From a virus, in IMG/VR virus record IMGVR_UViG_2861452123_000001, positions 13,139-77,138 of that record: 64,000 nucleotides of DNA; one strand, 5' to 3'. A program made the translations under genes and the position numbers. Below, one piece after another: positions 1,909 through 13,638 of the stretch (its first letter is position 1; each line of letters opens with the position of its first letter). Under the pieces are notes generated by a model, which did not search any database, was not told where the DNA came from, and worked only from the letters and a program-made list of their open reading frames with translations.

Positions 1909-3132
1909 CTACGTTCCCTTCACATTCATGACCTGGCGCAGCGTCGTGACGACTTCCACTAGGGGGTCCGCATCGGCCATCACCTGGTCGATGTCCTTGT
2001 ACGCGCCGGGGATCTCATCGATCCACTCATCGCCATGCCGGTACTCGATGCCCTCCATGGCTGCCGCGAGATCGTCAGCGGTGAACAGTTCCTTCGCCTT
2101 GGTCCGGCTGAACTTCCGACCAGCACCGTGCGGGGCAGAGAACAGTCCGGCCTCGTTGCCCTTCCCCCGCACCACGTACGACTTCGTGCCCATGGAGCCG
2201 GGGATAACACCCAGCTTCCCATCGTGGGCATCGATCGCTCCCTTGCGAGTGAGCCATACCCGTTGTCCCCCAATGGTTTCCGGTACGGTGTAGTTGTGGT
2301 GGCAGTTGATCCGGTCGATCTCGACGCGCTGTGGCTGCACACCCATCCACCAGGCGAACACCTGGACGAACCGGTCCATCATCTCGGCCCGGTTCAGGAA
2401 CGCGAACCGCTGCGCCCACTCCAGATCCTTGATGTAGCGGTCGAACTCAGGCGTGCCCTCTTCGAGGAATGCCAGATCACGGTTGGGGAGCTTGTAGTTC
2501 GCGCACTTGCAGTTCTCGATCGCGTGAGGCGCGACCTGCTTCTGGAGGCAGTACTCCGTGGCCACCTTGATGTGGCGCTGTGCGATCTTGTTGCCGACGC
2601 CACGGCTACCGCTGTGCAGGAACAGCCACACGTTGTCGTCGGCGTCCACACACAGCTCGATGAAGTGGTTACCGCCGCCGAGCGAGCCGAGCTGCTCCAT
2701 CCACTTCGGCGAGTGCGACAGATCCACGTCCAGCTTCTGCTGCAACTGGATCAGCTCTTCGTGCTTCGCCTTCGTGAACGTGAACCGCTGCAGCGTCTTG
2801 TTGTAGTTGCCGGGGCTGAGCGGGATGGCCTCCTCGACCTGGCGGCGCAACGATGCGAGGTCGAGGTGTGAGATCAGATCCCACTTGAACCGCGTGGCGA
2901 CGGCGATCATGCCGCAGCCGATGTCGACGCCGACCGCAGCAGGGATCACCGCACCCCTCGTCGGGATGACGGTGCCGACCGCAGATCCCTTGCCCGAGTG
3001 AGCATCCGGCATCAGTGCGACGTGCGGGTAGACGAACGGCATGCTCGCTGTTTCCTTCGCCTGCTCCACCGTGTTGTGGTCGATCATGCTGGCGAAGTTG
3101 ACGAGCTTCGGCGCGAGAGTTGTGGCGCTCAC
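1909..3132 (-). CDS. rtcB: RtcB RNA ligase
   Basis: MPDAHSG, GVDIGCGM, QLGSLGGGNHFIE, LHSGSRG, HHNY, RKGA, PGSMG, HGAGR, DEIPGAYK motifs. Confidence 0.97.
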   Translation of the reverse strand: MSATTLAPKLVNFASMIDHNTVEQAKETASMPFVYPHVALMPDAHSGKGSAVGTVIPTRGAVIPAAVGVDIGCGMIAVATRFKWDLISHLDLASLRRQVEEAIPLSPGNYNKTLQRFTFTKAKHEELIQLQQKLDVDLSHSPKWMEQLGSLGGGNHFIELCVDADDNVWLFLHSGSRGVGNKIAQRHIKVATEYCLQKQVAPHAIENCKCANYKLPNRDLAFLEEGTPEFDRYIKDLEWAQRFAFLNRAEMMDRFVQVFAWWMGVQPQRVEIDRINCHHNYTVPETIGGQRVWLTRKGAIDAHDGKLGVIPGSMGTKSYVVRGKGNEAGLFSAPHGAGRKFSRTKAKELFTADDLAAAMEGIEYRHGDEWIDEIPGAYKDIDQVMADADPLVEVVTTLRQVMNVKGT

Positions 3133-3500
3133 CGGACATCCCATTCCTTGGAATGCGCCTTGATGGCGTCCACGCATGCCCGCTTGCCGTCGATCAGGTA
3201 CGAGCTGACCCCCGACTGCCACTCGTAGCCCGTGAGGCCACGGATGTAGGCGATGGCGTCAGCCGTCGACAGGGGCTGCCCCCAGTCGCCGTCGGAACGG
3301 AAGTCCTCAAACGGCGACGGGCATGAACAACCGCTGTCCTCGCCGATCCGGTACGCCTTGCGCTTGGTGTCGTACAGGACGACGAGGGTGTCGAAGCTGT
3401 AGCAGGGTTCGGACTTCTCGAACTCGAAGACGAACTCCAGGTGCTCCAGGCCGTCGTGATACGACAGCCAATACGGGCGCTCGTACGTCTCGGCGCTCAC
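3129..3500 (-). CDS. Hypothetical protein (DSGCSCPSPFED family of actinophages)
   Basis: GTGA-coupled ORF; Cys motif. Confidence 0.7.
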   Translation of the reverse strand: MSAETYERPYWLSYHDGLEHLEFVFEFEKSEPCYSFDTLVVLYDTKRKAYRIGEDSGCSCPSPFEDFRSDGDWGQPLSTADAIAYIRGLTGYEWQSGVSSYLIDGKRACVDAIKAHSKEWDVR

Positions 3501-4582: not shown

Positions 4583-4617
4583 ACGAAAAAGCCCCCAGCT
4601 CTTACGAACTGGGGGCT
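4583..4617 (-). terminator. Intrinsic terminator of the tRNA operon
   Basis: AGCCCCCAG...CTGGGGGCT hairpin followed by TTTT. Confidence 0.85.
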
Positions 4618-4620
4618 GAC

Positions 4621-4693
4621 GTACTCGATGCGAGTATCGATCTCGCGCCTACAGATTGAGAATCTGGGATGCTTCCATTACACCAATCGAGCA
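4621..4693 (-). tRNA. tRNA-Glu(CTC)
   Basis: Cloverleaf, loop TT-CTC-AA, T loop ATCGATA. Confidence 0.8.
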
Positions 4694-4703
4694 TTGAAAC
4701 GAG

Positions 4704-4779
4704 CGCGGACAGCGGGATTTGAACCCGCGATCTCCACCGTGACAGGGTGGCGGGGACGGCCTGACTCCCCTATGCCTGC
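4704..4779 (-). tRNA. tRNA-Asp(GTC)
   Basis: CCACC-CTGTCAC-GGTGG arm, T loop TTCAAAT, G73. Confidence 0.9.
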
Positions 4780-4800
4780 ATGACTATTCAGTTATTGGAG

Positions 4801-4874
4801 TGGAGACGGTGAGAATCGAACTCGACCGCAGCAATCTTGCAAGGATCGCTCGCCCCCTTGGTACATGCGCCCCC
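4801..4874 (-). tRNA. tRNA-Ala(TGC)
   Basis: Loop CT-TGC-AA; G3:U70 pair; A73. Confidence 0.9.
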
Positions 4875-4877
4875 ATT

Positions 4878-4952
4878 GGCTCCCATGGCCGGAATCTCAC
4901 CGACGATCTCCGCGTAGACAGCGTGGCGGGTACTACTACCCTGCACAGGAGC
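4878..4952 (-). tRNA. Divergent second tRNA-Asp(GTC)-like gene
   Basis: Resembles the Asp gene at 4704; loop CT-GTC-TA; T loop TGAGATT. Confidence 0.55.
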
Positions 4953-4982
4953 GGGCAGTCACGCGTCACCGTGACTACTACC

Positions 4983-5060
4983 GGGCTGGAAGTCAGAATC
5001 GAACTGACGTAGTCCTACTTACTAGGTAGGTGCAAAGGGCCAACATTTGCAATTCCAGCC
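4983..5060 (-). tRNA. tRNA-Thr(AGT)
   Basis: CCTAC-CTAGTAA-GTAGG arm; perfect acceptor GGCTGGA/TCCAGCC. Confidence 0.8.
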
Positions 5061-5129
5061 TGACGCGGATGTGCTTCATATACACCACATCTAAGATGCC
5101 AGGCTTACGAACCTGGACCTTCCGCTAAG
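5061..5129 (-). ncRNA. Circularly permuted tRNA-like RNA 1 (YrlA-like topology)
   Basis: GCGGA-AGGT-[CCAGG TTCGTAAG CCTGG]-[CATC TTA GATG]-TG-[GTGT ATATGAA GCAC]-A-TCCGC. Confidence 0.7.
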
Positions 5130-5200
5130 TACCCAATGACCGAATTGAACAGTCGTCAACCGGGTGTAAACCGGCCGCTCTCCCATTGAGCTAATCGGGC
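5130..5200 (-). tRNA. tRNA-Val(TAC)
   Basis: GCCGG-TTTACAC-CCGGT arm; canonical D arm. Confidence 0.88.
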
Positions 5201-5265
5201 TTGAAAACCTGGCCTTGAGGCGCGTGCCCTAGAAGCGTTGCGCCACAGCGGGACAGGTGTTTACG

Positions 5266-5339
5266 AACTGGTAGCGGGATTCGAACCCGCACAACCTGTT
5301 TGGAAGACAGGGATGCTAACCGTTAAACATCACACCAGC
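5266..5339 (-). tRNA. tRNA-Gly(TCC)
   Basis: CCTGT-CTTCCAA-ACAGG arm; U73. Confidence 0.92.
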
Positions 5340-5340
5340 T

Positions 5341-5415
5341 TGGTACGGTCACCGGGTACTGCCCCCAGGTTTCCGTCTTATCAGGACGGCGTCCTTACTA
5401 TTGGACGATGACCGA
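5341..5415 (-). tRNA. tRNA-Ile(GAT)
   Basis: CCGTC-CTGATAA-GACGG arm; encoded ACCA; T loop GGCAGTA. Confidence 0.85.
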
Positions 5416-5416
5416 G

Positions 5417-5489
5417 TGGGTTGCCTGGGATTTGAACCCAGAACTGACACGTTAAGAGCGTGCGGTGATATCCGTTTCACCAACAACCC
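5417..5489 (-). tRNA. tRNA-Lys(CTT)
   Basis: GCACG-CTCTTAA-CGTGT arm; canonical T loop. Confidence 0.92.
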
Positions 5490-5790
5490 ATTGTTGTTGC
5501 CGCAGCTGACGATTCGCTGCGGCGATCTTGCGTACTTCGTTGCGGACGTGCTCGTCGCCTGGGTAGTTCGCCAGGTGCTCGGCTTGCGCCTTCCGCTGCT
5601 CGGCGTCGATGTTGGGCAGATCCTTGCCCAACCAGCACGCCCAGTTGAGGTTCTCATCGGTCAGCTCGACGTTCTGGCCAGCCGCCACGGCGGCGTTGTA
5701 CAGCTCGTCGTACTGCCGATTCCACTCAAGCTCCGCGTCACACAGCGGGCGGGTCATGGCCCAGACTTCGCGGAGGTTTGTGAGGCCCAT
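5452..5790 (-). CDS. Hypothetical protein inside the tRNA operon (3' end overlaps tRNA-Lys)
   Basis: AAGGAC RBS; phage-like codons. Confidence 0.65.
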   Translation of the reverse strand: MGLTNLREVWAMTRPLCDAELEWNRQYDELYNAAVAAGQNVELTDENLNWACWLGKDLPNIDAEQRKAQAEHLANYPGDEHVRNEVRKIAAANRQLRQQQWVVGETDITARS

Positions 5791-5813
5791 CGGTCCCGTC
5801 CTTCGTTGTTGCG

Positions 5814-5887
5814 TAGGTCACCCGAGAGTCGAACTCGGAAACTCTGCAGTCTGAGTGCAGTGGCTTTGCCAGTTTGCCCAGTGACCC
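5814..5887 (-). tRNA. tRNA-Leu(CAG) with short variable loop
   Basis: CTGCA-CTCAGAC-TGCAG arm; variable region only AGTTT; A73. Confidence 0.85.
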
Positions 5888-5888
5888 A

Positions 5889-5948
5889 TGGTGGCTGCCC
5901 GGTAGCCTGAACCCCTGTGAGCGCCAATGCCACCGACCGGCGGCAGCC
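5889..5948 (-). ncRNA. 60-nt hairpin RNA with acceptor-like stem and ACCA end
   Basis: GGCTGCC/GGCAGCC + ACCA; inner CGGTGGC/GCTACCG stem. Confidence 0.5.
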
Positions 5949-6004
5949 GTACTTTCGTGTCAGGGCACCTGGGCCTGAGCACGACCGGGTCCAGGTGCCC
6001 CTTG

Positions 6005-6075
6005 AGTGCCCGCCGCGATTCGAACGCGGGTGACTGGGGTTGCAGCCCAGCGCCTTGCCTCTCGGCCACGGTCAC
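6005..6075 (-). tRNA. tRNA-Cys(GCA)
   Basis: CTGGG-CTGCAAC-CCCAG arm; U73. Confidence 0.92.
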
Positions 6076-6078
6076 AAG

Positions 6079-6153
6079 TGGGGTGGTCGGCCGGTACTGA
6101 CCCGGCGTCGTCGCCGTTCACAGCGCGTGGCTCTACCTTTGAGCTACGACCAC
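6079..6153 (-). tRNA. tRNA-His(GTG)
   Basis: Loop CT-GTG-AA; C73 + CCA; weak anticodon stem; T loop GTCAGTA; T at position -1. Confidence 0.72.
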
Positions 6154-6155
6154 AG

Positions 6156-6228
6156 CACCGCTGACACGATTCGAACGTGCATTTGTGCGCCTTCGTAGGG
6201 CGGTGGGCCTCCGTTGCCCAACAGCGGT
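6156..6228 (-). tRNA. tRNA-Arg(ACG)
   Basis: CGCC-CTACGAA-GGCG arm; canonical T loop. Confidence 0.88.
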
Positions 6229-6253
6229 AGTGAGGCTTACGCCTCGTTGCAGA

Positions 6254-6496
6254 TTAATCCGCGCTGGTTGCCTCGGTGGCGGGCGTTTCGGCCACCGCTG
6301 GCACCTTCTTCGCTGGAGCCTTCTTCGGGGCCGCAGCGGGCTGCTCAGCGTCTTCGATCACTGCGTCGGTCTCGATCACGCCCGTCAGTGGCACCAGGCC
6401 AACCGCAAGGATGAGCTGCTCGATGAGTTCCGCGTGTTCGTTGATCGTGTCCGCTACGGCCTTGTCGATTCGTCCTGTGCTGACTCGTAGTGCCAC
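6254..6496 (-). CDS. Small hypothetical protein with Ala/Pro/Lys-rich tail, inside the tRNA operon
   Basis: GGAGG RBS + GTG; APKKAPAKK segment. Confidence 0.7.
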   Translation of the reverse strand: MALRVSTGRIDKAVADTINEHAELIEQLILAVGLVPLTGVIETDAVIEDAEQPAAAPKKAPAKKVPAVAETPATEATSAD

Positions 6497-6542
6497 TTGT
6501 TCCTCCGATTTGTGTTGTCCGATGCGGCCGCAAAGGACATCG

Positions 6543-6613
6543 TGGCGCAGACGGGATTCGAACCCGTAAAACTGGCTTATGAAACCAGGGTGATTCCGTT
6601 TCACTACCGCGCT
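6543..6613 (-). tRNA. tRNA-Met(CAT) (A1xC72 mismatch)
   Basis: CTGGT-TTCATAA-GCCAG arm; canonical T loop. Confidence 0.85.
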
Positions 6614-6760
6614 GCAGCCGCAGGACGTTTAACGTCCGCTGCGGCACGGACGGGTGTGGAGTGATATGGGGACGGGCGTTGTCCACGGCAACCCTGTAGC
6701 CGTCAGCGTCTTTCACCGGGGACGCAGAGACCGGCACCTACCTAACAACTTTGAGTGGCT

Positions 6761-6934
6761 CTAGGCCGCTATGACAGTGCCGTCCGGTAGGTGCGCCTTC
6801 AGGTCACTCAGTGGAAAGATCCGGCCGGTGAAGTACGTGCCCTCTGGCCATCGTGCCGCTGTCGTGGTTGGTCGGTCCCAGAGCTTCTCGTTGGAGAACA
6901 TTGGGTCGTCCCACCACTGCTTCTCATCTATCAC
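6761..6934 (-). CDS. Possible 57-aa protein starting directly after tRNA-Phe
   Basis: Own translation VIDEKQWWDDPMFSNEKLWDRP...DGTVIAA*; no RBS. Confidence 0.4.
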   Translation of the reverse strand: MIDEKQWWDDPMFSNEKLWDRPTTTAARWPEGTYFTGRIFPLSDLKAHLPDGTVIAA

Positions 6935-6935
6935 G

Positions 6936-7007
6936 CCGTGATGCCTGGAGCCGAACCAGGGCCTTCGGGTTTTCAGGCCGACGCTCTTCCAACTGAGCTA
7001 CAACACG
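6936..7007 (-). tRNA. tRNA-Phe(GAA)
   Basis: Loop CT-GAA-AA; canonical D arm. Confidence 0.85.
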
Positions 7008-7022
7008 ATTGGTTCCTCTGTT

Positions 7023-7242
7023 GTTGACGCTGCGAGGCACTCGGGACCGCGAATCCCGATCAGCGGGCGCCCTAACCCCGACACCCAGGGAGTCCCCCTA
7101 TTCCGCTGACCCACGTCAGTTTGGGACCACTGATCTGCGTGGAGGTTGGGGGGCCGATATTCCTACGCGCCTCGGCTTAACGCGAACTGGGGTGCCTCCG
7201 CGACGGCGCGTACGGTTCCTTGCAATCGAAGTCACCGTCAAC
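7023..7242 (-). ncRNA. ~220-nt structured RNA of unknown class
   Basis: Terminal stem GTTGACG/CGTCAAC; internal TACGCGCC/GGCGCGTA, CTGAC/GTCAG and TCGGGA/TCCCGA stems. Confidence 0.5.
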
Positions 7243-7249
7243 CCAAGCG

Positions 7250-7333
7250 CGGAGAGGAGTGGGCACGATCCACACGGCTGGGCCGCAAGCTGATTAGCAA
7301 TCAGTTCCCGCCACCTGGCGGGCTCCACTCTCC
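7250..7333 (-). tRNA. tRNA-Ser(GCT)
   Basis: Loop TT-GCT-AA; long variable arm; G73; T loop ATCGTGC. Confidence 0.85.
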
Positions 7334-7338
7334 AAAGT

Positions 7339-7410
7339 TGGCCTACCCTTTCAGACCGGCGTTGTCCCGGTGCACCTGTATTCACTCTTAGCCATGGCCA
7401 GGCGGGTAGG
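7339..7410 (-). ncRNA. Three-way-junction RNA ending in CCA
   Basis: CCTACCC/GGGTAGG + CCA; arms GCCTG/CAGGT and ACCGG/CCGGT. Confidence 0.45.
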
Positions 7411-7415
7411 TAACG

Positions 7416-7504
7416 CGGAAGGCAGAGGGCACGCTCCCCGAGCAGCCGAACTGCTACCTGGCTTTCGACACCAGTCGCCCCACTACGGGACTGCTGTACC
7501 TTCC
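7416..7504 (-). tRNA. tRNA-Ser(CGA)
   Basis: Loop GT-CGA-AA; long variable arm AGCAG/CTGCT; G73; T loop AGCGTGC. Confidence 0.8.
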
Positions 7505-7595
7505 ATGGGACGTATAACACTGTTTGTTCGGGTTCCCCCTACCGGCGTTACGTCATTATCAACCCGGTCTGCCACGACCCCGTCGTGGACTTTCG

Positions 7596-7670
7596 TCGGG
7601 AAGGCTGGATTCGAACCAGCGACACCCCGCTTCCAAAGCGGTCAGGCTGACCAAGCTGCCCCACATCCCG
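7596..7670 (-). tRNA. tRNA-Pro(TGG)
   Basis: CCGC-TTTGGAA-GCGG arm; C1:G72; A73. Confidence 0.92.
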
Positions 7671-7714
7671 ATTGCGACGGTTCCCACGACTTAGCTTTAC
7701 CGACAACGCATCAC

Positions 7715-7788
7715 GCACCCCGTCGAGGATTCGAACCTCAACCACCTGGATCAGAGCCAGGCATCCTGCCAGTTAAACGAACAGGGTA
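7715..7788 (-). tRNA. tRNA-Gln(CTG)
   Basis: CCTGG-CTCTGAT-CCAGG arm; canonical T loop. Confidence 0.88.
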
Positions 7789-7985
7789 TGGAGACGCTTC
7801 GTTCAGTCGGCCCAGCGTCACTGCCGATCACGCGCCCAGGCTGGGGACGGCCCTACCTACCCTCACCGTGCCCACGGGCGGGAGTGGTACCTCGCGTGTA
7901 TGTCAGAGCGGGTTCTCCCATTCATGACTGAGAGGGTGGACCGCTGACCCAGTTGACGGTTTGCCCCGGCCAACCAACGGAGTTG

Positions 7986-8067
7986 TCTCGACTGATGGAT
8001 TCGAACCACCACACCCGAAAGCTCTGATTTACAGTCAGAGATCCTTCGCCAATAGGAGAGAGCCGAG
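7986..8067 (-). tRNA. tRNA-Tyr(GTA)
   Basis: TCTGA-CTGTAAA-TCAGA arm; variable arm; C1:G72; A73. Confidence 0.88.
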
Positions 8068-8072
8068 ATGTC

Positions 8073-8173
8073 ATGGAATGACCGGCTTTTCCCCGGCATC
8101 TGCGACCGTCGACTGTCGCCGTGCTACCAAGAGCCGTCGCCACATGGCTGGTTTACCCTTGCACCACATTCCA
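8073..8173 (-). ncRNA. tRNA-like RNA with the anticodon arm replaced by a multi-hairpin insert
   Basis: Acceptor TGGAATG/CATTCCA; D-like and T-like arms; ~50-nt central domain. Confidence 0.5.
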
Positions 8174-8232
8174 AGTTTGGAGCCGGTGCTCGGCTCTTCG
8201 CCGACTAGCTAGCACGCACCGACACGTTTAAC

Positions 8233-8371
8233 GGAGCCGCTCTACCGTTGAGCCGTATACAACTGCCCGCACAAAGCCCCAACTGCTGGTACCGCGTCGG
8301 TGTAACTCTGCTCTCCCCCTGCAGAGGGAGCGGGAGGTCGCAGGGGGATTCGAACCCCCAACCACTCCTCG
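8233..8371 (-). ncRNA. Circularly permuted tRNA-like RNA 2
   Basis: GGAGT-GGTT-[GGGGG TTCGAAT CCCCC]-TGCGAC...GTTGTA-TACG-[GCTC AACGGTA GAGC]-G-GCTCC. Confidence 0.7.
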
Positions 8372-8444
8372 CTGGCCCACCAGGATTCGAACCTAGAGTC
8401 ACGCCTTAACAGGGCGTTGGTTTACCGGATTAACCGACAGGCCA
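8372..8444 (-). tRNA. tRNA-Asn(GTT)
   Basis: ACGCC-CTGTTAA-GGCGT arm; G73. Confidence 0.92.
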
Positions 8445-8848
8445 ATGGTATTGCAGTAATCACATCCGCTGCAACGCTGCCGATGTGTCCTTCCCCGATG
8501 GCAATTAGCGCACACCAGGTCGCACTTCACTGCTTCCGCTCGCATGCGGGCGAGGGAAACGATTGTGTTGCCGTCCGCTACACCGAATAGCTTCTCGGCC
8601 GGATCTCGGTGATCAAAATCCATCGCGTACGGCGGATATTCATTGCCGCAGTCGAGACACTTGCCCCCGTGCTCGGCAACCAGGGTTGCCTTGTTCTTTC
8701 GCCTAGTTCGAGCCACTGCATCAGAAGCCGATTCCTTTCGGCATACGTTGCAATGTCGGTCTTTTCGGATCACATCAACAGGACGATCACTGCGGTACTG
8801 GAACTCACTAAGTGCTTTCAATTTCCCACACTTGGGGCACGCTTTCAT
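8399..8848 (-). CDS. Free-standing HNH (homing-type) endonuclease in the tRNA operon
   Basis: CPKC...CNVC Zn motif, CLDC, MDFDHRDP, CDLVCANCH; RBS GAGGGTAGG. Confidence 0.88.
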   Translation of the reverse strand: MKACPKCGKLKALSEFQYRSDRPVDVIRKDRHCNVCRKESASDAVARTRRKNKATLVAEHGGKCLDCGNEYPPYAMDFDHRDPAEKLFGVADGNTIVSLARMRAEAVKCDLVCANCHRGRTHRQRCSGCDYCNTIGLSVNPVNQRPVKA

Positions 8849-9065
8849 GAGTTCACCTACCCTCTTATCAAGTCTGCCCCCACGGATGTCCGCAGTGGGG
8901 GATGCGGGGCAAATCGGTCGCCACTCCAGCGCCATTGCAGGCCGCGTATGCAACGGTGTGCGCCACTGTCGTTCGCGTTAGACTGCCTGCAACTAGGGCC
9001 GAACGGCGAACCGTCCAACCTCCACCACTTGCTTTTGAGGCGGGAAAGCAAGAAACCAAGTAACA

Positions 9066-9189
9066 GGCCCTGTGCTGCCTTACACCACGTCGACTCGCTC
9101 GCTGATCTGGCGGCGGCAGGCATGCGGCTGTACAGACGGCACACGATGTAAACGACGGCGGGACTTCGAAACCCGCACCAGGGCCTTTG
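9066..9189 (-). ncRNA. Circularly permuted tRNA-like RNA 3
   Basis: GGCCC-TGGT-[GCGGG TTTCGAAGT CCCGC]-CGTCG...CGACG-TG-[GTGT AAGGCA GCAC]-A-GGGCC. Confidence 0.72.
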
Positions 9190-9557
9190 TGGAGCTGCCG
9201 AGAATCGAACTCGGGTCTCATGCAGTGTTTGTCAAGCCTTCTACGTGCGTAGCGTTTGGCGACTTCTATACCGCTGCCCTCCGCGAGGCGGTTGCCGGTC
9301 TCCATTCCGGCTCTGCTCATGACTTCCGCTATTTTGCCTCTTGCGACGTGGTGCTCAATTCCTGCGAGGGTTCCCCGTATTTCGGCAGTGGATTGGCACA
9401 CGGAACGGGTGAACCGTTGTGCCCCACTGGACTAAGCCGCTGCGGCGTAGTCGGACGCGGTGAAAGCTGCGTTTATTGGGTTTGCACTGTTACGGGACGT
9501 TGCTTCCCGGCACGCTTCTCAAGACATACAAGCTCATGATCGAAACCTGTCAGCCCC
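9190..9557 (-). ncRNA. ssrA: tmRNA, tag (A)AAFTASDYAAAA
   Basis: 5' GGGGCTGACAGGTTTCGA; 3' GTTCGATTCTCGGCAGCTCCA with G3:U70; AATAAAC-GCA resume site; tag ORF 9470-9432. Confidence 0.95.
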
Positions 9558-9675
9558 AAAGGTATTGCTATGTAGTTGTCAAAGTCCCAATTGAAAGTGC
9601 TCAACCGGATTTTTGTTTGGGGGGGATTTTGAAACCAAAAGCCTTTTACCCAAACCGAAATCGCGGTTTACTGCG

Positions 9676-9748
9676 CGTAACCGGCACGATTCGAACGTGC
9701 ATCCACCCGCTTTGGAGGCGGGGACTCTACCAATTAAGCTACGTTCAC
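9676..9748 (-). tRNA. tRNA-Trp(CCA)
   Basis: CCCGC-CTCCAAA-GCGGG arm; G73. Confidence 0.92.
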
Positions 9749-9749
9749 A

Positions 9750-9784
9750 TGGTGGCCCACCGAGGCTTCGACTCCCGGTGGGCC
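9750..9784 (-). ncRNA. 35-nt acceptor/T-arm minihelix with ACCA end
   Basis: GGCCCAC-CGGG-AGTCGAAG-CC-T-CG-GTGGGCC-A-CCA. Confidence 0.55.
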
Positions 9785-9857
9785 AAGAGCCTGCCTCGCC
9801 ATTGATGGAAGGCTCTTACCTGTACCGCTGTGAGGCATTCGGTGCCTGACATGTATG

Positions 9858-11202: not shown

Positions 11203-11540
11203 CAGTCCCTTACGCGAACGTCGAAGCAGTTGGATGCGATGGGCTCGACGGAAACCGCGCGGCTAGCGCTGACACTCAGCACGCCGTCCTTCATGCGGAC
11301 GCCGACCTCGTCGTAGCTGTACTTCGAGGGTTCGCCGGTCGCGGAGAAGTACACGGTCTGGTACCCACGCTCGCTGGGAATGTACAGCTTGTTCTTCCAA
11401 TCGCCGTACCAGATGTGCGTCGGCTCCACGGTTTCCAAGTGTTCGGCGAGACGATGCTCCGCGGTCGCGGCGCGGTGACGCTCCCTGGCTAGCTCTTCGC
11501 GTGCCCACCGGGGCAGCTTCTCTTCACGGGGATCGCTCAC
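11202..11540 (-). CDS. Hypothetical protein (KLPRWA family of actinophages)
   Basis: GTGA-coupled ORF. Confidence 0.7.
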   Translation of the reverse strand: MSDPREEKLPRWAREELARERHRAATAEHRLAEHLETVEPTHIWYGDWKNKLYIPSERGYQTVYFSATGEPSKYSYDEVGVRMKDGVLSVSASRAVSVEPIASNCFDVRVRD

Positions 11541-12322
11541 GCTGCATCCTTTCGTATCACCAGCATGGTGTTGCGGTCGAGTGTCGTTGCGTCCATGTCC
11601 ATCCCGATGATCTGGGTTACATGCGCCGGTCCTGTGTACAGGCTGTTGTACCGGTTGTGATAGTGCCCGTGGAACAGGACGGCCGGACGGACAACGTCGA
11701 CCACCTTCTGCAGCTGCTTGCGGTTGACGGTGGACGCCTCGATCTCCGAGAGTGGCCACCCGCTACGGGCGGCGTCGAGCTTGTCGTCGGCATGGATGCC
11801 AGGAATGGCAACGCCGTATGGGCAGTCGTGGGTGACCATCACATCGACGTGACTGCCGTCTCCGATGGCACGTGCTACGTCGGCGTCGGAGATGTGTTCC
11901 CCGTCCCACCAAGACTTACCAGGGGTACGCTGCAGTCGGTCCACGGAGTGCGCACCACCGAGTGACATCCAGGTCTGGCCCCACCATTCCCAGCGGTGAC
12001 CGCGTGGCATGTGAATGATGTTGGGGTAGTTGGGGGCTGACCATGGCTGGTGATCGAAGGCGTCGACCCACTCTTCGAGGTCGTCGTGGTTCTCATGGTT
12101 GCCGTCGACCCAGTGCAGGGTGACGCCGCACTCCTGAAGGTTCTCCTGCAGGAACCGCAAGTACTTCCACGTGTCGCGGTCGAGGACACTCCACCAGCCG
12201 AAGTCGCCGACGTGAATGATGGTGTCGGCACCCGACTTGCGGGCGTGATGGATGACCTTCTGGCCCCATGCGCCGTTGCCATGCCAGTCGCCTGCGACGA
12301 GGATCTTGGTGGGTTCGTTCAT
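11537..12322 (-). CDS. Calcineurin-like metallophosphoesterase
   Basis: GDWHG, VGDFG, VDGNHENH, VTHD, FHGHYH. Confidence 0.93.
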   Translation of the reverse strand: MNEPTKILVAGDWHGNGAWGQKVIHHARKSGADTIIHVGDFGWWSVLDRDTWKYLRFLQENLQECGVTLHWVDGNHENHDDLEEWVDAFDHQPWSAPNYPNIIHMPRGHRWEWWGQTWMSLGGAHSVDRLQRTPGKSWWDGEHISDADVARAIGDGSHVDVMVTHDCPYGVAIPGIHADDKLDAARSGWPLSEIEASTVNRKQLQKVVDVVRPAVLFHGHYHNRYNSLYTGPAHVTQIIGMDMDATTLDRNTMLVIRKDAA

Positions 12323-12477
12323 CGGTTGACCACCATGACGTTGCGCCACTCCTCGGCCTTGCAGCCCATGCAGGTGCGCTTCTGGCACACCTGATCGCCG
12401 TTGTTGAACGCCTCGCCCCACGCGGTGTACATGTGGAAGCCGTGGAGGCTGCAGAGGTCTATTGCGCCAAGGCTCAC
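12319..12477 (-). CDS. Small Cys/His-rich protein
   Basis: Coupled ORF with C...H...CxxC pattern. Confidence 0.55.
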   Translation of the reverse strand: MSLGAIDLCSLHGFHMYTAWGEAFNNGDQVCQKRTCMGCKAEEWRNVMVVNR

Positions 12478-13041: not shown

Positions 13042-13638
13042 CTACGCCCATGAGCGAACCTCGGCTTCGAACGCGGGGTTGCATAGGGCCGCAGGCGACC
13101 GCTTATCGCGGAGTAGCGACACGATGAAGTCGCCGTCGATTGGGTCAGCGCCGGGGAGTTCCTGGCCCTGCCATTCGAGATAGAGCGCCTTGGCTGCGAC
13201 GAGGGACGACCGGTTGAGTCCAGCCTGGCAGTGCACCAGGACGGGGCCGGACTCGCGGCAGAGGTTGACCCAGCGAGCGAGCGCGTCGACTTGCTCGTAG
13301 CCCTGGTCCTCGGCGTCGTACATCTGCACGTACGTCTCGGACAGCACGTCATGGTTGATCGTGTACCGCTCCCACGGGTACAGCGACACCAGATGCTTGA
13401 TGTGCTTCGGGAGCACCAGGCCGGTTTCGCAGCCGCCCTGCCACAGGTTGTGTCCGATCTCGGAGATGTACGGCATGTCGAATGGCGTCCACCCATGGCG
13501 AGCCACGCCGCTGAGGCGCTGTGTCTGCGGGTCGGTGGTGATGTCGATGGCGGTGTGGTCGCCGTTGGACGCACGCCACTCGCGAGTAGTCGTTGGGTCG
13601 GTCACGACGAGGGTGATGTCCTCGGTGCGGAGCGCCAT
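13042..13638 (-). CDS. Dual-specificity (CX5R) phosphatase
   Basis: LVHCQAGLNRSSLV P-loop. Confidence 0.9.
   Translation of the reverse strand: MALRTEDITLVVTDPTTTREWRASNGDHTAIDITTDPQTQRLSGVARHGWTPFDMPYISEIGHNLWQGGCETGLVLPKHIKHLVSLYPWERYTINHDVLSETYVQMYDAEDQGYEQVDALARWVNLCRESGPVLVHCQAGLNRSSLVAAKALYLEWQGQELPGADPIDGDFIVSLLRDKRSPAALCNPAFEAEVRSWA

What the first reader, a model, noticed from the sequence alone, without database searches (positions are those of the whole stretch)
4621..9800. Candidate new system: a tRNA operon interleaved with anticodon-less tRNA mimics, in a genome carrying RNA end-repair enzymes
Seen: almost every spacer between canonical tRNAs holds a folded tRNA sub-structure. 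There are three permuted tRNA-shaped RNAs lacking an anticodon loop, a CCA minihelix, two more CCA-ended hairpins, and a tRNA body with a replaced anticodon arm. Each permuted RNA starts 3-4 nt after the discriminator of an upstream tRNA or tmRNA that lacks encoded CCA, so normal tRNA 3' processing could release it. The same arm encodes RtcB, a CX5R phosphatase and a metallophosphoesterase. Known: host defences (PrrC, RloC, PARIS, retron effectors, VapC toxins) cut tRNA anticodon loops; RtcB reseals 2',3'-cyclic-P/5'-OH breaks; YrlA Y RNAs have this permuted D/T/acceptor topology. Inference: a three-layer counter-defence made of replacement tRNAs, repair, and uncleavable decoys that sequester tRNA-recognising enzymes. 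Alternatively, the permuted genes could mature through a circular intermediate. Caveat: RNase P/Z ends (3'-OH/5'-P) are not direct RtcB substrates.
Basis: partly seen in the sequence, partly recalled or inferred. Interest (0 to 1): 0.9.

Follow-up and report, generated by a model that had tools for sequence, protein, structure and literature searches.

The report
Permuted tRNA mimics in prophage array
A mycobacterial prophage's tRNA operon carries three RNA modules shaped like a tRNA whose ends sit where the anticodon loop should be; relatives keep the fold through compensatory base changes, the design recalls bacterial YrlA Y RNAs, and its function is still unknown.

Summary
The window holds a minus-strand array (9748-4621) of a Vilmaviridae (cluster M-like) mycobacterial prophage: 17 standard tRNAs, a tmRNA, three non-canonical tRNAs that ARAGORN missed (His, Ile, Ser), an HNH gene and two possible small ORFs. 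Three spacers hold circularly permuted tRNA-like modules ("ptl"): 9189-9058 after the tmRNA, 8370-8226 after tRNA-Asn and 5128-5060 after tRNA-Val.

Each ptl runs in the same order. A closing-stem strand is followed by a V region, a T-arm, a closed acceptor-like stem, a D-arm and the second closing-stem strand. Thirteen copies from this window and eight related phage or prophage loci keep all four helices through many compensatory changes. A model built only from other phages finds the window's tmRNA-linked copy at 50.5 bits.

The topology is that of the YrlA tRNA-like domain. There is no Ro60-binding stem and no Ro60 gene, and scores stay below Rfam's threshold. The modules are unannotated in all but one GenBank record (one labels the spot tRNA-Leu).

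"Almost every spacer" is overstated. The "replaced anticodon arm" body is a tRNA-His orthologue. The CCA hairpins are partly tRNA 3' ends. The decoy/counter-defence function is untested. I call this a new variant of a known kind.

The parts
4621..9748 (-). tRNA/tmRNA array of a cluster M-like (Vilmaviridae) prophage. Gene order: Trp, tmRNA, Asn, Tyr, Gln, Pro, Ser, Phe, Met, Arg, His, Cys, Leu, Lys, Ile, Gly, Val, Thr, Ala, Asp, Glu.
   Evidence: ARAGORN and Rfam. The same gene order occurs in Nanosmite, prophiT49-2, Bongo, Rey and others.
9187..9557 (-). tmRNA with tag AAFTASDYAAAA. The 3' end reads ...CTCC-A-CAAA, so CCA is not encoded.
   Evidence: Rfam RF00023 at 90.5 bits; ARAGORN; sequence.
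9058..9189 (-). ptl-tm, a permuted tRNA-like module. Parts: leader CAAA 9189-9186; closing strand 9185-9181; V region 9180-9177; T-arm 9176-9158 with a 9-nt loop; extended acceptor-like arm 9157-9088 (5-bp stem plus a 60-nt two-hairpin insert); D-arm 9085-9072; closing strand 9070-9066; tail TGTTACTT 9065-9058.
   Evidence: Segmentation with all stems paired. R2, built from four other phages, gives 50.5 bits, E 2.9e-10, over the full model length. Insert structure with 11 of 23 compensated pairs.
8399..8848 (-). HNH endonuclease ORF inside the array. Its 3' end overlaps tRNA-Asn by 46 nt.
   Evidence: PHROG 2255, E 6e-31; reading frame.
8226..8370 (-). ptl-Asn, a permuted tRNA-like module. Parts: leader GA 8370-8369; closing strand GGAGT 8368-8364; V region 8363-8360; canonical T-arm 8359-8343; acceptor-like arm 8342-8258 (6-bp stem plus a 73-nt insert); D-arm 8253-8239; closing strand GCTCC 8237-8233; tail GTTAAAC 8232-8226.
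   Evidence: It holds the only orphan canonical T-arm in the window's array region. R1 gives 37.7 bits and R2 31.8 bits. The Rfam YrlA model aligns in the permuted order at 17.4 bits. Segmentation.
5060..5128 (-). ptl-Val, a short and degenerate permuted tRNA-like module. It has closing stem GCGGA/TCCGC, an 8-nt T-loop, a 4-bp acceptor-like hairpin and a D-loop without GG. It sits between tRNA-Val and tRNA-Thr.
   Evidence: R1 gives 32.3 bits over the full model. Folding z-score -2.8. The same closing stem and D-arm type occur in the tmRNA-linked copy of EniyanLRS.
6082..6153 (-). Non-canonical tRNA-His(GTG). It has T-loop GTCAGTA, an irregular anticodon stem and an encoded CCA.
   Evidence: Rfam tRNA at 39.4 bits. 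Orthologue of His(gtg) in L023/L025 with the same T-loop.
5344..5415 (-). Non-canonical tRNA-Ile(GAT) abutting tRNA-Lys. It has T-loop GGCAGTA and the 3' end ...TACCA.
   Evidence: Rfam tRNA at 41.8 bits. Orthologues with the same T-loop occur in L012 and L018.
7249..7333 (-). tRNA-Ser(GCT) orthologue with a non-canonical T-arm. ARAGORN and Rfam both miss it. Ends are approximate, read by eye from the alignment.
   Evidence: Alignment with Ser(gct) of L018, L020 and L012 shows compensatory changes in the D, anticodon and variable arms.
5889..5947 (-). Long hairpin closed by a 7-bp stem (GGCTGCC/GGCAGCC) and followed by ACCA, 1 nt before tRNA-Leu. Its status is uncertain.
   Evidence: Fold (whole-spacer z-score -1.4). 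Relatives carry an ORF or a different hairpin plus ACCA at this place.
4590..4617 (-). Intrinsic terminator-like hairpin plus a T-run, closing the array.
   Evidence: folding z-score -6.6.
1909..3222 (-). RtcB RNA ligase gene, downstream of the array.
   Evidence: Pfam PF01139, E 2e-111; PHROG 1075.
11537..12421 (-). Calcineurin-like metallophosphoesterase gene.
   Evidence: Pfam PF00149 at 32.9 bits.
13042..13638 (-). Dual-specificity/PTP-like phosphatase with the motif HCQAGLNR.
   Evidence: Pfam DSPc at 27.2 bits, below its cut-off; the CX5R motif lies at residues 137-143.

Best explanation
SHOWN. The three elements belong to a conserved family of circularly permuted tRNA-like RNA modules (ptl) carried in the tRNA/tmRNA operons of Vilmaviridae mycobacteriophages and prophages. 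Each folds as a tRNA body: a T-arm, a D-arm, a 4-5 nt variable region, and a 5-bp stem equivalent to the anticodon stem. The acceptor end is closed by a loop or a structured insert. The 5' and 3' ends lie in what would be the anticodon loop: the leader ends in A, like A38, and the tail begins G-U, like U33.

INFERRED. The module is transcribed with the array. Its 5' end is freed when the upstream CCA-less tRNA or tmRNA is cut after its discriminator. In the best-preserved copies the 7-bp acceptor-like stem stacked on the 5-bp T-stem gives the 12-bp helix that RNase P, RNase Z and the CCA-adding enzyme measure. The module is therefore probably handled as M. smegmatis YrlA is, that is cut in the acceptor loop and given CCA.

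MOST LIKELY ROLE (weakly supported). It acts in trans as a tRNA mimic that occupies a tRNA-recognising protein which reads the elbow and acceptor end rather than the anticodon. It does so without entering translation.
For: Conserved position and architecture. All four helices are paired in 13 copies, with 9 distinct closing-stem pairs and 10 distinct T-stems. Covariation test: 93% of cells paired, 10 of 21 pairs with changes on both sides, score 0.435 against 0.179 for shuffles (0 of 500) and at most 0.095 for slid partners. RNAalifold predicts the permuted cloverleaf de novo. R2, built without the window, detects 9188-9058 independently. The module is present in both Mclasvirinae and Wildcatvirus. 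The tRNA core nucleotides are kept: T8/A9, the GG of the D-loop and the TTCGANY T-loop. Rfam YrlA aligns to its tRNA-like core only. The acceptor-like stem has 7 bp in three of the four short Asn-linked copies and 8-10 bp in two tmRNA-linked ones. [quoted passage not shown] No R1 or R2 hit lies in the 58 kb of the window outside the array.
Against: There is no expression, end-mapping or binding data of any kind. No partner protein is identified. The host genome has no Ro60/TROVE gene. The window's own copies are the most degenerate of the family: T-loops of 9 and 8 nt, acceptor-like stems of 4-6 bp, and no GG in the ptl-Val D-loop. Only a handful of independent lineages exist, and related sequences inflate covariation statistics. 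The Aziz copy runs on into a decayed normal-order tRNA, which shows an origin by tandem tRNA duplication, so some of the pairing is inherited rather than selected.
Confidence: 0.42

Rival explanations
1. Cis-acting processing or insulating element. The module serves only within the polycistronic transcript. It would mark the boundary between a tRNA-type RNA and a long non-tRNA segment, recruit RNase P or RNase Z, or shield the neighbour's 3' end from exonucleases. It would have no role as a free RNA.
For: It always abuts the 3' end of a tRNA or tmRNA, with a leader of 2-4 nt that is replaced by the encoded CCA in Bongo, Rey and Nanosmite. It is usually followed by long non-tRNA RNA: GOLLD in Rey, MrMagoo, Aziz and Reindeer, and a conserved hairpin element after the tmRNA. 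Where tRNAs are packed 1-5 nt apart no ptl is present.
Against: RNase P or RNase Z would cut in the acceptor loop, about 35 nt from the junction, which does not produce the neighbour's mature end. Bongo and Nanosmite lack the Asn-linked copy, MrMagoo lacks the tmRNA-linked copy, and Aziz lacks a recognisable one. Keeping a D-arm, closing stem and variable region exceeds what a minihelix processing signal needs. ptl-Val is followed directly by tRNA-Thr.
Confidence: 0.25
2. Accessory tRNA-shaped domain of larger RNA assemblies. The module would be a handle attached through its anticodon-type stem to neighbouring structured RNAs such as GOLLD in relatives, or it would self-associate through the palindromic apical loop of its extended arm.
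For: In four relatives the Asn-linked copy lies directly 5' of the GOLLD region. GOLLD is reported to carry linked tRNAs and to form RNA-only cages. The extended arms end in palindromic loops: CUGCAG, GUGCAC, CUGUACAG and CAUAUG.
Against: The window and its whole genome have no GOLLD, yet they keep the ptl modules. The palindromes are equally well explained as an extra intramolecular pair closing a tetraloop. Palindromes of 6 nt or more occur about 10 times per kb in this DNA.
Confidence: 0.1
3. Evolutionary debris. The modules would be leftover 3' and 5' halves of tandemly duplicated tRNA genes with no present function.
For: Aziz keeps a decayed normal-order tRNA continuing from the ptl 3' half. 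The window copies carry degenerate loops. tRNA arrays in these phages gain and lose genes freely.
Against: Helices stay fully paired through many double substitutions, while most flanking spacers are no longer alignable. The same position is kept across two genera of the family. The tmRNA-linked insert keeps its size (60-62 nt) and fold.
Confidence: 0.08
4. True permuted tRNA gene. The transcript ends would be joined, for example by RtcB, to form an anticodon loop. The acceptor loop would then be opened by RNase P and RNase Z, giving a working tRNA.
For: The 3' half precedes the 5' half, and an intervening loop or insert joins the acceptor strands, as in algal permuted tRNA genes. The tail (G-U-...) and the leader (...R-A) look like the two parts of an anticodon loop. 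RtcB is encoded 1.4 kb away.
Against: Leader plus tail would give loops of variable length, from 7 to more than 12 nt. The would-be anticodon differs between orthologues (TAA, TAC, TAG, TAT, CAA, CAG). RNase P and RNase Z ends (5'-P, 3'-OH) are not RtcB substrates. No bulge-helix-bulge motif was noted by eye, and bacteria are not known to have the splicing endonuclease that cuts it. The 3' end is not defined by any known site.
Confidence: 0.04

Closest known systems
YrlA Y RNA (Rfam RF02553), especially M. smegmatis and mycobacteriophage YrlA (Chen et al. 2014, PMC4201824)
   Same: The permuted order is the same: stem strand, V region, T-arm, closed acceptor-like stem, D-arm, stem strand. The tRNA core nucleotides are kept. 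Several copies have a 7-bp acceptor-like stem. The Rfam model aligns to exactly this core (model positions 23-85).
   Different: There is no long Ro60-binding stem, because the module starts 3-4 nt after another RNA's 3' end. There is no Ro60/TROVE gene in the prophage or the host. Scores of 17-31 bits lie below the 69-bit threshold. The module is embedded in a tRNA/tmRNA operon, not next to rsr. Some copies carry a 60-85 nt arm (60-73 nt insert) in place of the acceptor loop.
Permuted tRNA genes of Cyanidioschyzon merolae and two-piece (permuted) tmRNA genes of alpha-proteobacteria and cyanobacteria (from my own knowledge)
   Same: The 3' half (T-arm, acceptor 3' strand) is encoded upstream of the 5' half (acceptor 5' strand, D-arm), with an intervening segment between the acceptor strands that RNase P and 3' processing could remove.
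   Different: No reconstitutable anticodon loop or constant anticodon, no tag reading frame, and no evidence of circularisation. The Rfam permuted-tmRNA model gives only 20.9 bits against a 47-bit threshold.
tRNA arrays with tmRNA, RtcB and GOLLD RNA in cluster M mycobacteriophages and mycobacterial tRNA islands (Pope et al. 2014, from memory; PMC6582537; Morgado et al. 2020, cited within)
   Same: Same gene order, a tmRNA, interspersed HNH genes, non-canonical tRNAs and RtcB at the end of the array.
   Different: In the papers I could read or search, only the tRNAs, tmRNA and GOLLD are described, not the permuted modules. The window lacks GOLLD, whereas all six related loci scanned have it.
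Phage tRNAs that evade or neutralise tRNA-targeting defences, such as T5 tRNAs against PARIS or anticodon-loop variants (from my own knowledge)
   Same: RNA of tRNA shape, encoded in a phage tRNA cluster and proposed to counter host attack on tRNA.
   Different: Those are complete, decoding tRNAs. The ptl modules have no anticodon loop and no free acceptor end as transcribed.

Membership tests
YrlA (RF02553) | tRNA-like domain in permuted order (T-arm, closed acceptor-like stem, D-arm) enclosed by a stem | tested here: met
YrlA (RF02553) | Score at or above Rfam's gathering threshold of 69 bits | tested here: not met
   17.4 bits for window 8375-8213. 30.9 bits for the best-preserved relative, L021. 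Sub-threshold YrlA hits also occur at ordinary tRNA-tRNA junctions, so they are not diagnostic.
YrlA (RF02553) | Long terminal helix that binds Ro60, formed by the RNA's 5' and 3' ends | tested here: not met
   The leader is only 2-4 nt after the upstream discriminator. The Rfam alignment of the best-preserved copy covers model positions 23-85 only; in the window copy the terminal positions align weakly and the inner part of the stem is deleted.
YrlA (RF02553) | Linked Ro60/Rsr (TROVE) gene | tested here: not met
   No PF05731 match anywhere in the 8.6-Mb genome, which is 100% complete.
YrlA (RF02553) | RNase P cleavage in the acceptor loop and CCA addition (the M. smegmatis member) | not testable with these tools
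   Known only from PMC4201824. It needs in vitro assays or end mapping.
Canonical tRNA (RF00005) | Cloverleaf in gene order with an anticodon arm | tested here: not met
   Applies to the three ptl modules: there is no anticodon arm and the order of halves is inverted. The feature is met for 6153-6082 (39.4 bits) and 5415-5344 (41.8 bits).
Permuted tRNA gene (algal/archaeal type) | 3' half upstream of 5' half, with the acceptor strands joined by an intervening sequence | tested here: met
Permuted tRNA gene (algal/archaeal type) | Ends that rebuild a 7-nt anticodon loop with a constant anticodon, and a bulge-helix-bulge junction | tested here: not met
   Leader and tail lengths and the would-be anticodon vary between orthologues. 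No BHB motif was noted on reading the sequences; I ran no dedicated search for it.
Two-piece (permuted) tmRNA (RF04321) | Match at the gathering score, and a tag-encoding piece | tested here: not met
   20.9 bits against a 47-bit threshold at 9217-9166. There is no tag reading frame.
GOLLD RNA (RF02032) | Match to the conserved 3' domain | tested here: not met
   None in the window or the genome. Six related loci give 162-216 bits.
Vilmaviridae (cluster M-type) tRNA array | Conserved order Trp-tmRNA-...-Asp-Glu followed by RtcB | tested here: met

The most novel reading that the evidence does not exclude
After RNase P and RNase Z cleavage and CCA addition, each ptl becomes a two-piece, anticodon-less tRNA body with a genuine CCA end. 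It would be made in bulk from the tRNA operon. It would soak up host or prophage toxins that attack the tRNA acceptor end, such as MenT/AbiEii-type nucleotidyltransferases or toxSAS/CapRel-type pyrophosphokinases, both known in mycobacteria (from my own knowledge). That would be an RNA anti-defence decoy of a kind not yet described. A rarer variant of this reading is that RtcB seals the open anticodon end to give a nuclease-proof circle.
Probability: 0.12. Interest if true: 0.85.

Novelty: new variant of a known kind. Interest (0 to 1): 0.62.

Why it matters
tRNA arrays of large phages are now read as replacement parts against tRNA-targeting immunity, and phage tRNA islands also house the unexplained cage-forming RNAs GOLLD and ROOL. 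A third, conserved class of structured RNA in the same operons would add a new player. It is a tRNA body with a sealed acceptor end and an open anticodon end, independent of Ro60. It can be tested in a tractable system, cluster M phages on M. smegmatis. It would also show that the YrlA design can work without Ro60, which bears on what the tRNA-like half of bacterial Y RNAs is for. On the practical side, these modules and three non-canonical tRNAs are missed or mislabelled by standard annotation.

Tried and rejected
1. Close relatives for fine-scale comparison. Megablast and blastn against phages aligned only the tRNAs and left the spacers unaligned. A DNA search of 300 genomes of the genus found nothing useful.
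2. Rfam at permissive thresholds. No known family explains the spacers; there is only a weak YrlA hit and a weak permuted-tmRNA hit.
3. Folding z-scores. They are uninformative for the long spacers. The first script timed out.
4. Genome-wide scans with R1 (150 genomes of the genus) and R2 (150 of the family). Apart from the window itself, the hits I inspected were ordinary tRNA-tRNA junctions, plus one YrlA-like RNA in G018 and a second tRNA array in this genome. These models cannot be used blindly.
5. R1 with filters off. It split ptl-Asn in two and missed ptl-tm. ptl-tm needed the dedicated model R2.
6. Isotype of origin. Comparing the ptl halves with all 86 tRNAs of the host genome gave no clear parent.
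7. Direct-repeat search in the array. It found only T-arm similarity.
8. Promoter scan. It found none.
9. The cluster M paper (Pope et al. 2014) could not be read. What I say of it is from memory.
10. The palindromic-loop dimer idea. It is kept only as a passing note, because an intramolecular pair explains the same data.
11. The CCA minihelix as a conserved tRNA mimic. Rejected for lack of conservation.

Full report
WHAT THE REGION IS

The window is part of contig C19 of an 8.6-Mb, 66% GC mycobacterial genome. It has 62% GC and carries phage genes such as a 2184-aa ORF of tape-measure size (not checked against any family), DnaB, SSB and WhiB. BLAST of the array places it with Vilmaviridae mycobacteriophages: cluster M phages Bongo, PegLeg, Rey, Nanosmite and MrMagoo, M. 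abscessus prophages such as prophiT49-2, and more distantly Wildcat-like phages. Only the tRNA genes align.

ARAGORN finds 17 tRNAs and a tmRNA on the minus strand between 9748 and 4621. Rfam adds two tRNAs that ARAGORN misses, 6153-6082 and 5415-5344. The array ends in the only minus-strand terminator-like hairpin, 4617-4590.

RtcB lies 1.4 kb further on, at 3222-1909. Upstream of the array are a metallophosphoesterase (12421-11537) and a phosphatase with the motif HCQAGLNR (13638-13042).

THE SPACERS, ONE BY ONE

Three spacers hold coding sequence or possible coding sequence: an HNH endonuclease (8848-8399) and two small ORFs of no known family (6496-6254 and 5790-5452).

Three spacers hold whole but non-canonical tRNAs.
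It has the same unusual T-loop GTCAGTA and an encoded CCA. Its anticodon stem is irregular but its loop reads CTGTGAA.
- 5415-5344 is tRNA-Ile(GAT). It abuts tRNA-Lys as in all relatives, and its T-loop GGCAGTA is shared with L012 and Bongo.
- About 7333-7249 is an orthologue of tRNA-Ser(GCT), with compensatory changes in three arms.

The long spacers after the tmRNA, Tyr and Pro are not unusually structured as wholes (z-scores -0.5, +0.6 and +0.3). 'Almost every spacer' is therefore an overstatement.

THE PERMUTED MODULES

A simple search for 5-bp stems with a TTCRANN-type loop finds one canonical T-arm outside any tRNA in the window's array region, 11 nt after tRNA-Asn. The same search in the related arrays finds orphan T-arms again and again, 9-13 nt after the tmRNA and 11-13 nt after tRNA-Asn.

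Reading on from those T-arms shows a constant design:
- a leader of 2-4 nt directly after the discriminator of the upstream RNA (in Bongo, Rey and Nanosmite the leader is the encoded CCA itself);
- a 5-nt stem strand;
- a 4-5 nt variable region, often AGGTC;
- a 5-bp T-arm with a TTCGANY loop;
- an acceptor-like stem closed by a 3-10 nt loop or by a long insert;
- TA or TG;
- a 4-bp D-arm whose loop usually holds GG;
- one nucleotide;
- the 5-nt partner of the first strand;
- a short tail that usually begins GTTA.

This is a tRNA circularly permuted in its anticodon loop. The leader ends in A (like A38) and the tail starts G-T (like U33).

The window has three copies.
- ptl-tm, 9189-9058. It has a 9-nt T-loop and a 60-nt two-hairpin insert.
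- ptl-Asn, 8370-8226. It has a canonical T-arm and a 73-nt insert.
- ptl-Val, 5128-5060. It is short, with an 8-nt T-loop, a 4-bp acceptor-like hairpin and no GG in the D-loop.

The three upstream genes end ...A-CAAA...G-CGA and ...A-CTTA (discriminator, then the next bases), so none encodes CCA.

IS IT MORE THAN CHANCE?

In 13 curated copies from the window and eight related loci, the closing stem is 5/5 paired in every copy and the T-stem 5/5. The acceptor-like stem is fully paired in twelve copies (9 of 10 in one), and the D-stem is 4/4 in twelve (3 of 4 in one). There are nine different closing-stem sequences and ten different T-stems.

On the six short copies the pair-count tool gives 93% paired cells and 10 of 21 pairs with changes on both sides. 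The covariation score is 0.435, against 0.179 for shuffles (0 of 500 reach it) and at most 0.095 when partners are slid by 1-3 columns.

RNAalifold, given four tmRNA-linked copies from other phages, predicts the permuted cloverleaf and a three-way junction in the insert without guidance. In the insert alone, 11 of 23 pairs are compensated. A covariance model built from those four copies scores the window's 9188-9058 at 50.5 bits, E 3e-10, over its full length. The model built from short copies scores 8371-8227 at 37.7 bits and 5128-5059 at 32.3 bits.

The tmRNA-linked module also occurs in EniyanLRS, a Wildcatvirus, at 44.4 bits, and in prophiGD54-2. Its position has therefore been kept across two genera of the family.

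One caution applies. Both models also hit ordinary junctions of neighbouring tRNAs, where a T-arm and acceptor strand are followed by an acceptor strand and D-arm. Such hits reach about 37-44 bits in host genomes. Bit score alone is therefore not proof. What sets the ptl copies apart is that there is no room for the missing halves, and that the closing and acceptor-like stems pair with each other.

WHAT IT IS NOT

- It is not a member of Rfam's YrlA family. The model aligns only over its tRNA-like core (positions 23-85 of 114) at 17-31 bits against a 69-bit threshold. The Ro60-binding helix is absent, and the complete host genome has no TROVE gene and no true YrlA.
- It is not GOLLD. All six related loci scanned carry GOLLD RNA in the array at 162-216 bits, and in Rey, MrMagoo, Aziz and Reindeer it lies directly after the Asn-linked ptl. 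The window and its genome have none.
- It is not a described feature of these genomes. Most GenBank records leave the spot unannotated, and one calls it tRNA-Leu. Full-text searches found YrlA in mycobacteriophages only for the Ro60-encoding ones, and found no permuted tRNA-like element in phage arrays.

ORIGIN

In Aziz the 3' half of the module runs on into a decayed normal-order tRNA with its own T-arm. The family therefore probably began as a tandem tRNA duplication that lost the first copy's 5' half and, in most lineages, the second copy's 3' half. No present host tRNA is a clear parent. Inherited complementarity explains why the halves paired at first. It does not explain why nine different closing stems all still pair.

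HOW IT LIKELY WORKS

Shown: a conserved, tRNA-shaped fold with a sealed acceptor end and open anticodon end, transcribed in the sense of the array.

Inferred: its 5' end is released when the upstream CCA-less RNA is cut after its discriminator.

Inferred from a precedent: in three of the four short Asn-linked copies the acceptor-like stem has 7 bp, and 8-10 bp in two tmRNA-linked ones. [quoted passage not shown] The ptl is therefore probably recognised by the same enzymes.

Speculative: the role. I rank a trans-acting mimic first. It would engage a protein that reads the tRNA elbow and acceptor end. The whole L-shape is kept, which is more than a processing signal needs, and some relatives dispense with one copy or the other. 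A purely cis-acting boundary or insulator element is a close second, given the strict placement behind a tRNA or tmRNA and before long non-tRNA RNA.

Toxins that act on the acceptor end would fit better; this is my own knowledge and is not tested here. The circular-intermediate or permuted-pre-tRNA idea is unlikely. The joined loop would vary in length, the would-be anticodon is not constant (TAA, TAC, TAG, TAT, CAA, CAG), and RNase P and RNase Z ends are not RtcB substrates.

VERDICT

The system-level story of three defence layers is conjecture. The claim about nearly all spacers fails. The window's own copies are the most eroded members of the family.

I rate it a new variant of a known kind: a YrlA-type tRNA mimic without Ro60, resident in phage tRNA operons. 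Interest is moderate to high. It is testable in M. smegmatis phages.

Noticed in passing
L018:5670-6083, L020:5471-5885, L022:5361-5784, L019:5283-5700, L006:3444-3887, L012:4187-4615; absent from the window: All six related arrays scanned carry GOLLD RNA (162-216 bits), mostly between Asn and Tyr, and between Gln and Phe in prophiT49-2. This window and its whole genome have no GOLLD match, so the prophage seems to have lost it.
   Followed up: yes
window 9057-9021 (minus strand); also L018, L019, L020, L021, L022 and L005 after the tmRNA or ptl-tm: A conserved element GGTTTC, hairpin, GTGGTGGA follows the tmRNA or ptl-tm in all relatives checked. The hairpin stem covaries (CTTGCTT/AAGCAAG, CCATC/GATGG, CCTACCT/GGGTAGG). 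It matches no Rfam family.
   Followed up: partly
window: 3' ends of all 17 ARAGORN tRNAs and of the tmRNA: Every one has C directly after the discriminator but none has CCA. Only the non-canonical His and Ile tRNAs encode CCA.
   Followed up: no
window 6153-6082 and 5415-5344; L023, L025, L012, L018: The His and Ile tRNAs share an unusual T-loop (G-T/G-CAGTA in place of TTCGAAT). Orthologues in other phages keep it, so it is a maintained variant and not decay.
   Followed up: partly
window 9135-9128 and 8324-8319; L018:4951-4956; L020, L005 and L022 inserts; L058:1904-1909: The apical loop of the first hairpin in the extended acceptor arm is palindromic in four different forms: CUGCAG, GUGCAC, CUGUACAG and CAUAUG. 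This could allow kissing-loop dimers, or it could simply be one more base pair around a tetraloop.
   Followed up: partly
L018 about 6949-7020 and L020 about 6710-6781 (after tRNA-Ser(gct)): Bongo and Reindeer carry a normal-order tRNA-like element with acceptor stem, D-arm and T-arm but no anticodon arm, plus an extra hairpin before the 3' acceptor strand. This is a second kind of anticodon-less tRNA-like element in the family.
   Followed up: no
L019:8557-8592 (MrMagoo, Gly-Val spacer): A match to the abiF RNA motif sits just above its gathering score (38.4 against 37 bits) inside a related tRNA array.
   Followed up: no
window 8399-8444: The HNH endonuclease reading frame runs 46 nt into the tRNA-Asn gene. 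A similar HNH/tRNA overlap is annotated in prophiT49-2 (HNH with tRNA-Met).
   Followed up: no
window 7984-7788 (Tyr-Gln spacer) compared with L019:5943-6230 and L021:5945-6233: Parts of this spacer are conserved with the Rey-type phages (...ACGGTGAG...TAGGGCCGTCCCCAGYCTGGGC..., and CCGACTGAA...TCCA just before tRNA-Gln). There is no known function and no unusual folding energy.
   Followed up: no
G000:C6 about 6.5-12 kb (L035, L051, L053, L054): The same genome holds a second dense tRNA array on another contig: Gln, Glu, Ile, Ser, four Arg and a Thr tRNA.
   Followed up: no
window 5892-5889; L006:5200-5203, L023, L025, L026 just before tRNA-Leu: A hairpin followed by ACCA lies 1-2 nt upstream of the first tRNA-Leu, both here and in M. 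abscessus prophages. Cluster M phages have an ORF end at that place instead.
   Followed up: partly
L031 (G018:C3:38599-38681): A YrlA-like RNA with a 7-bp acceptor-like stem, found in another species of the genus. It was the only hit that was neither a tRNA junction nor a phage copy among the five top genus hits I inspected.
   Followed up: partly
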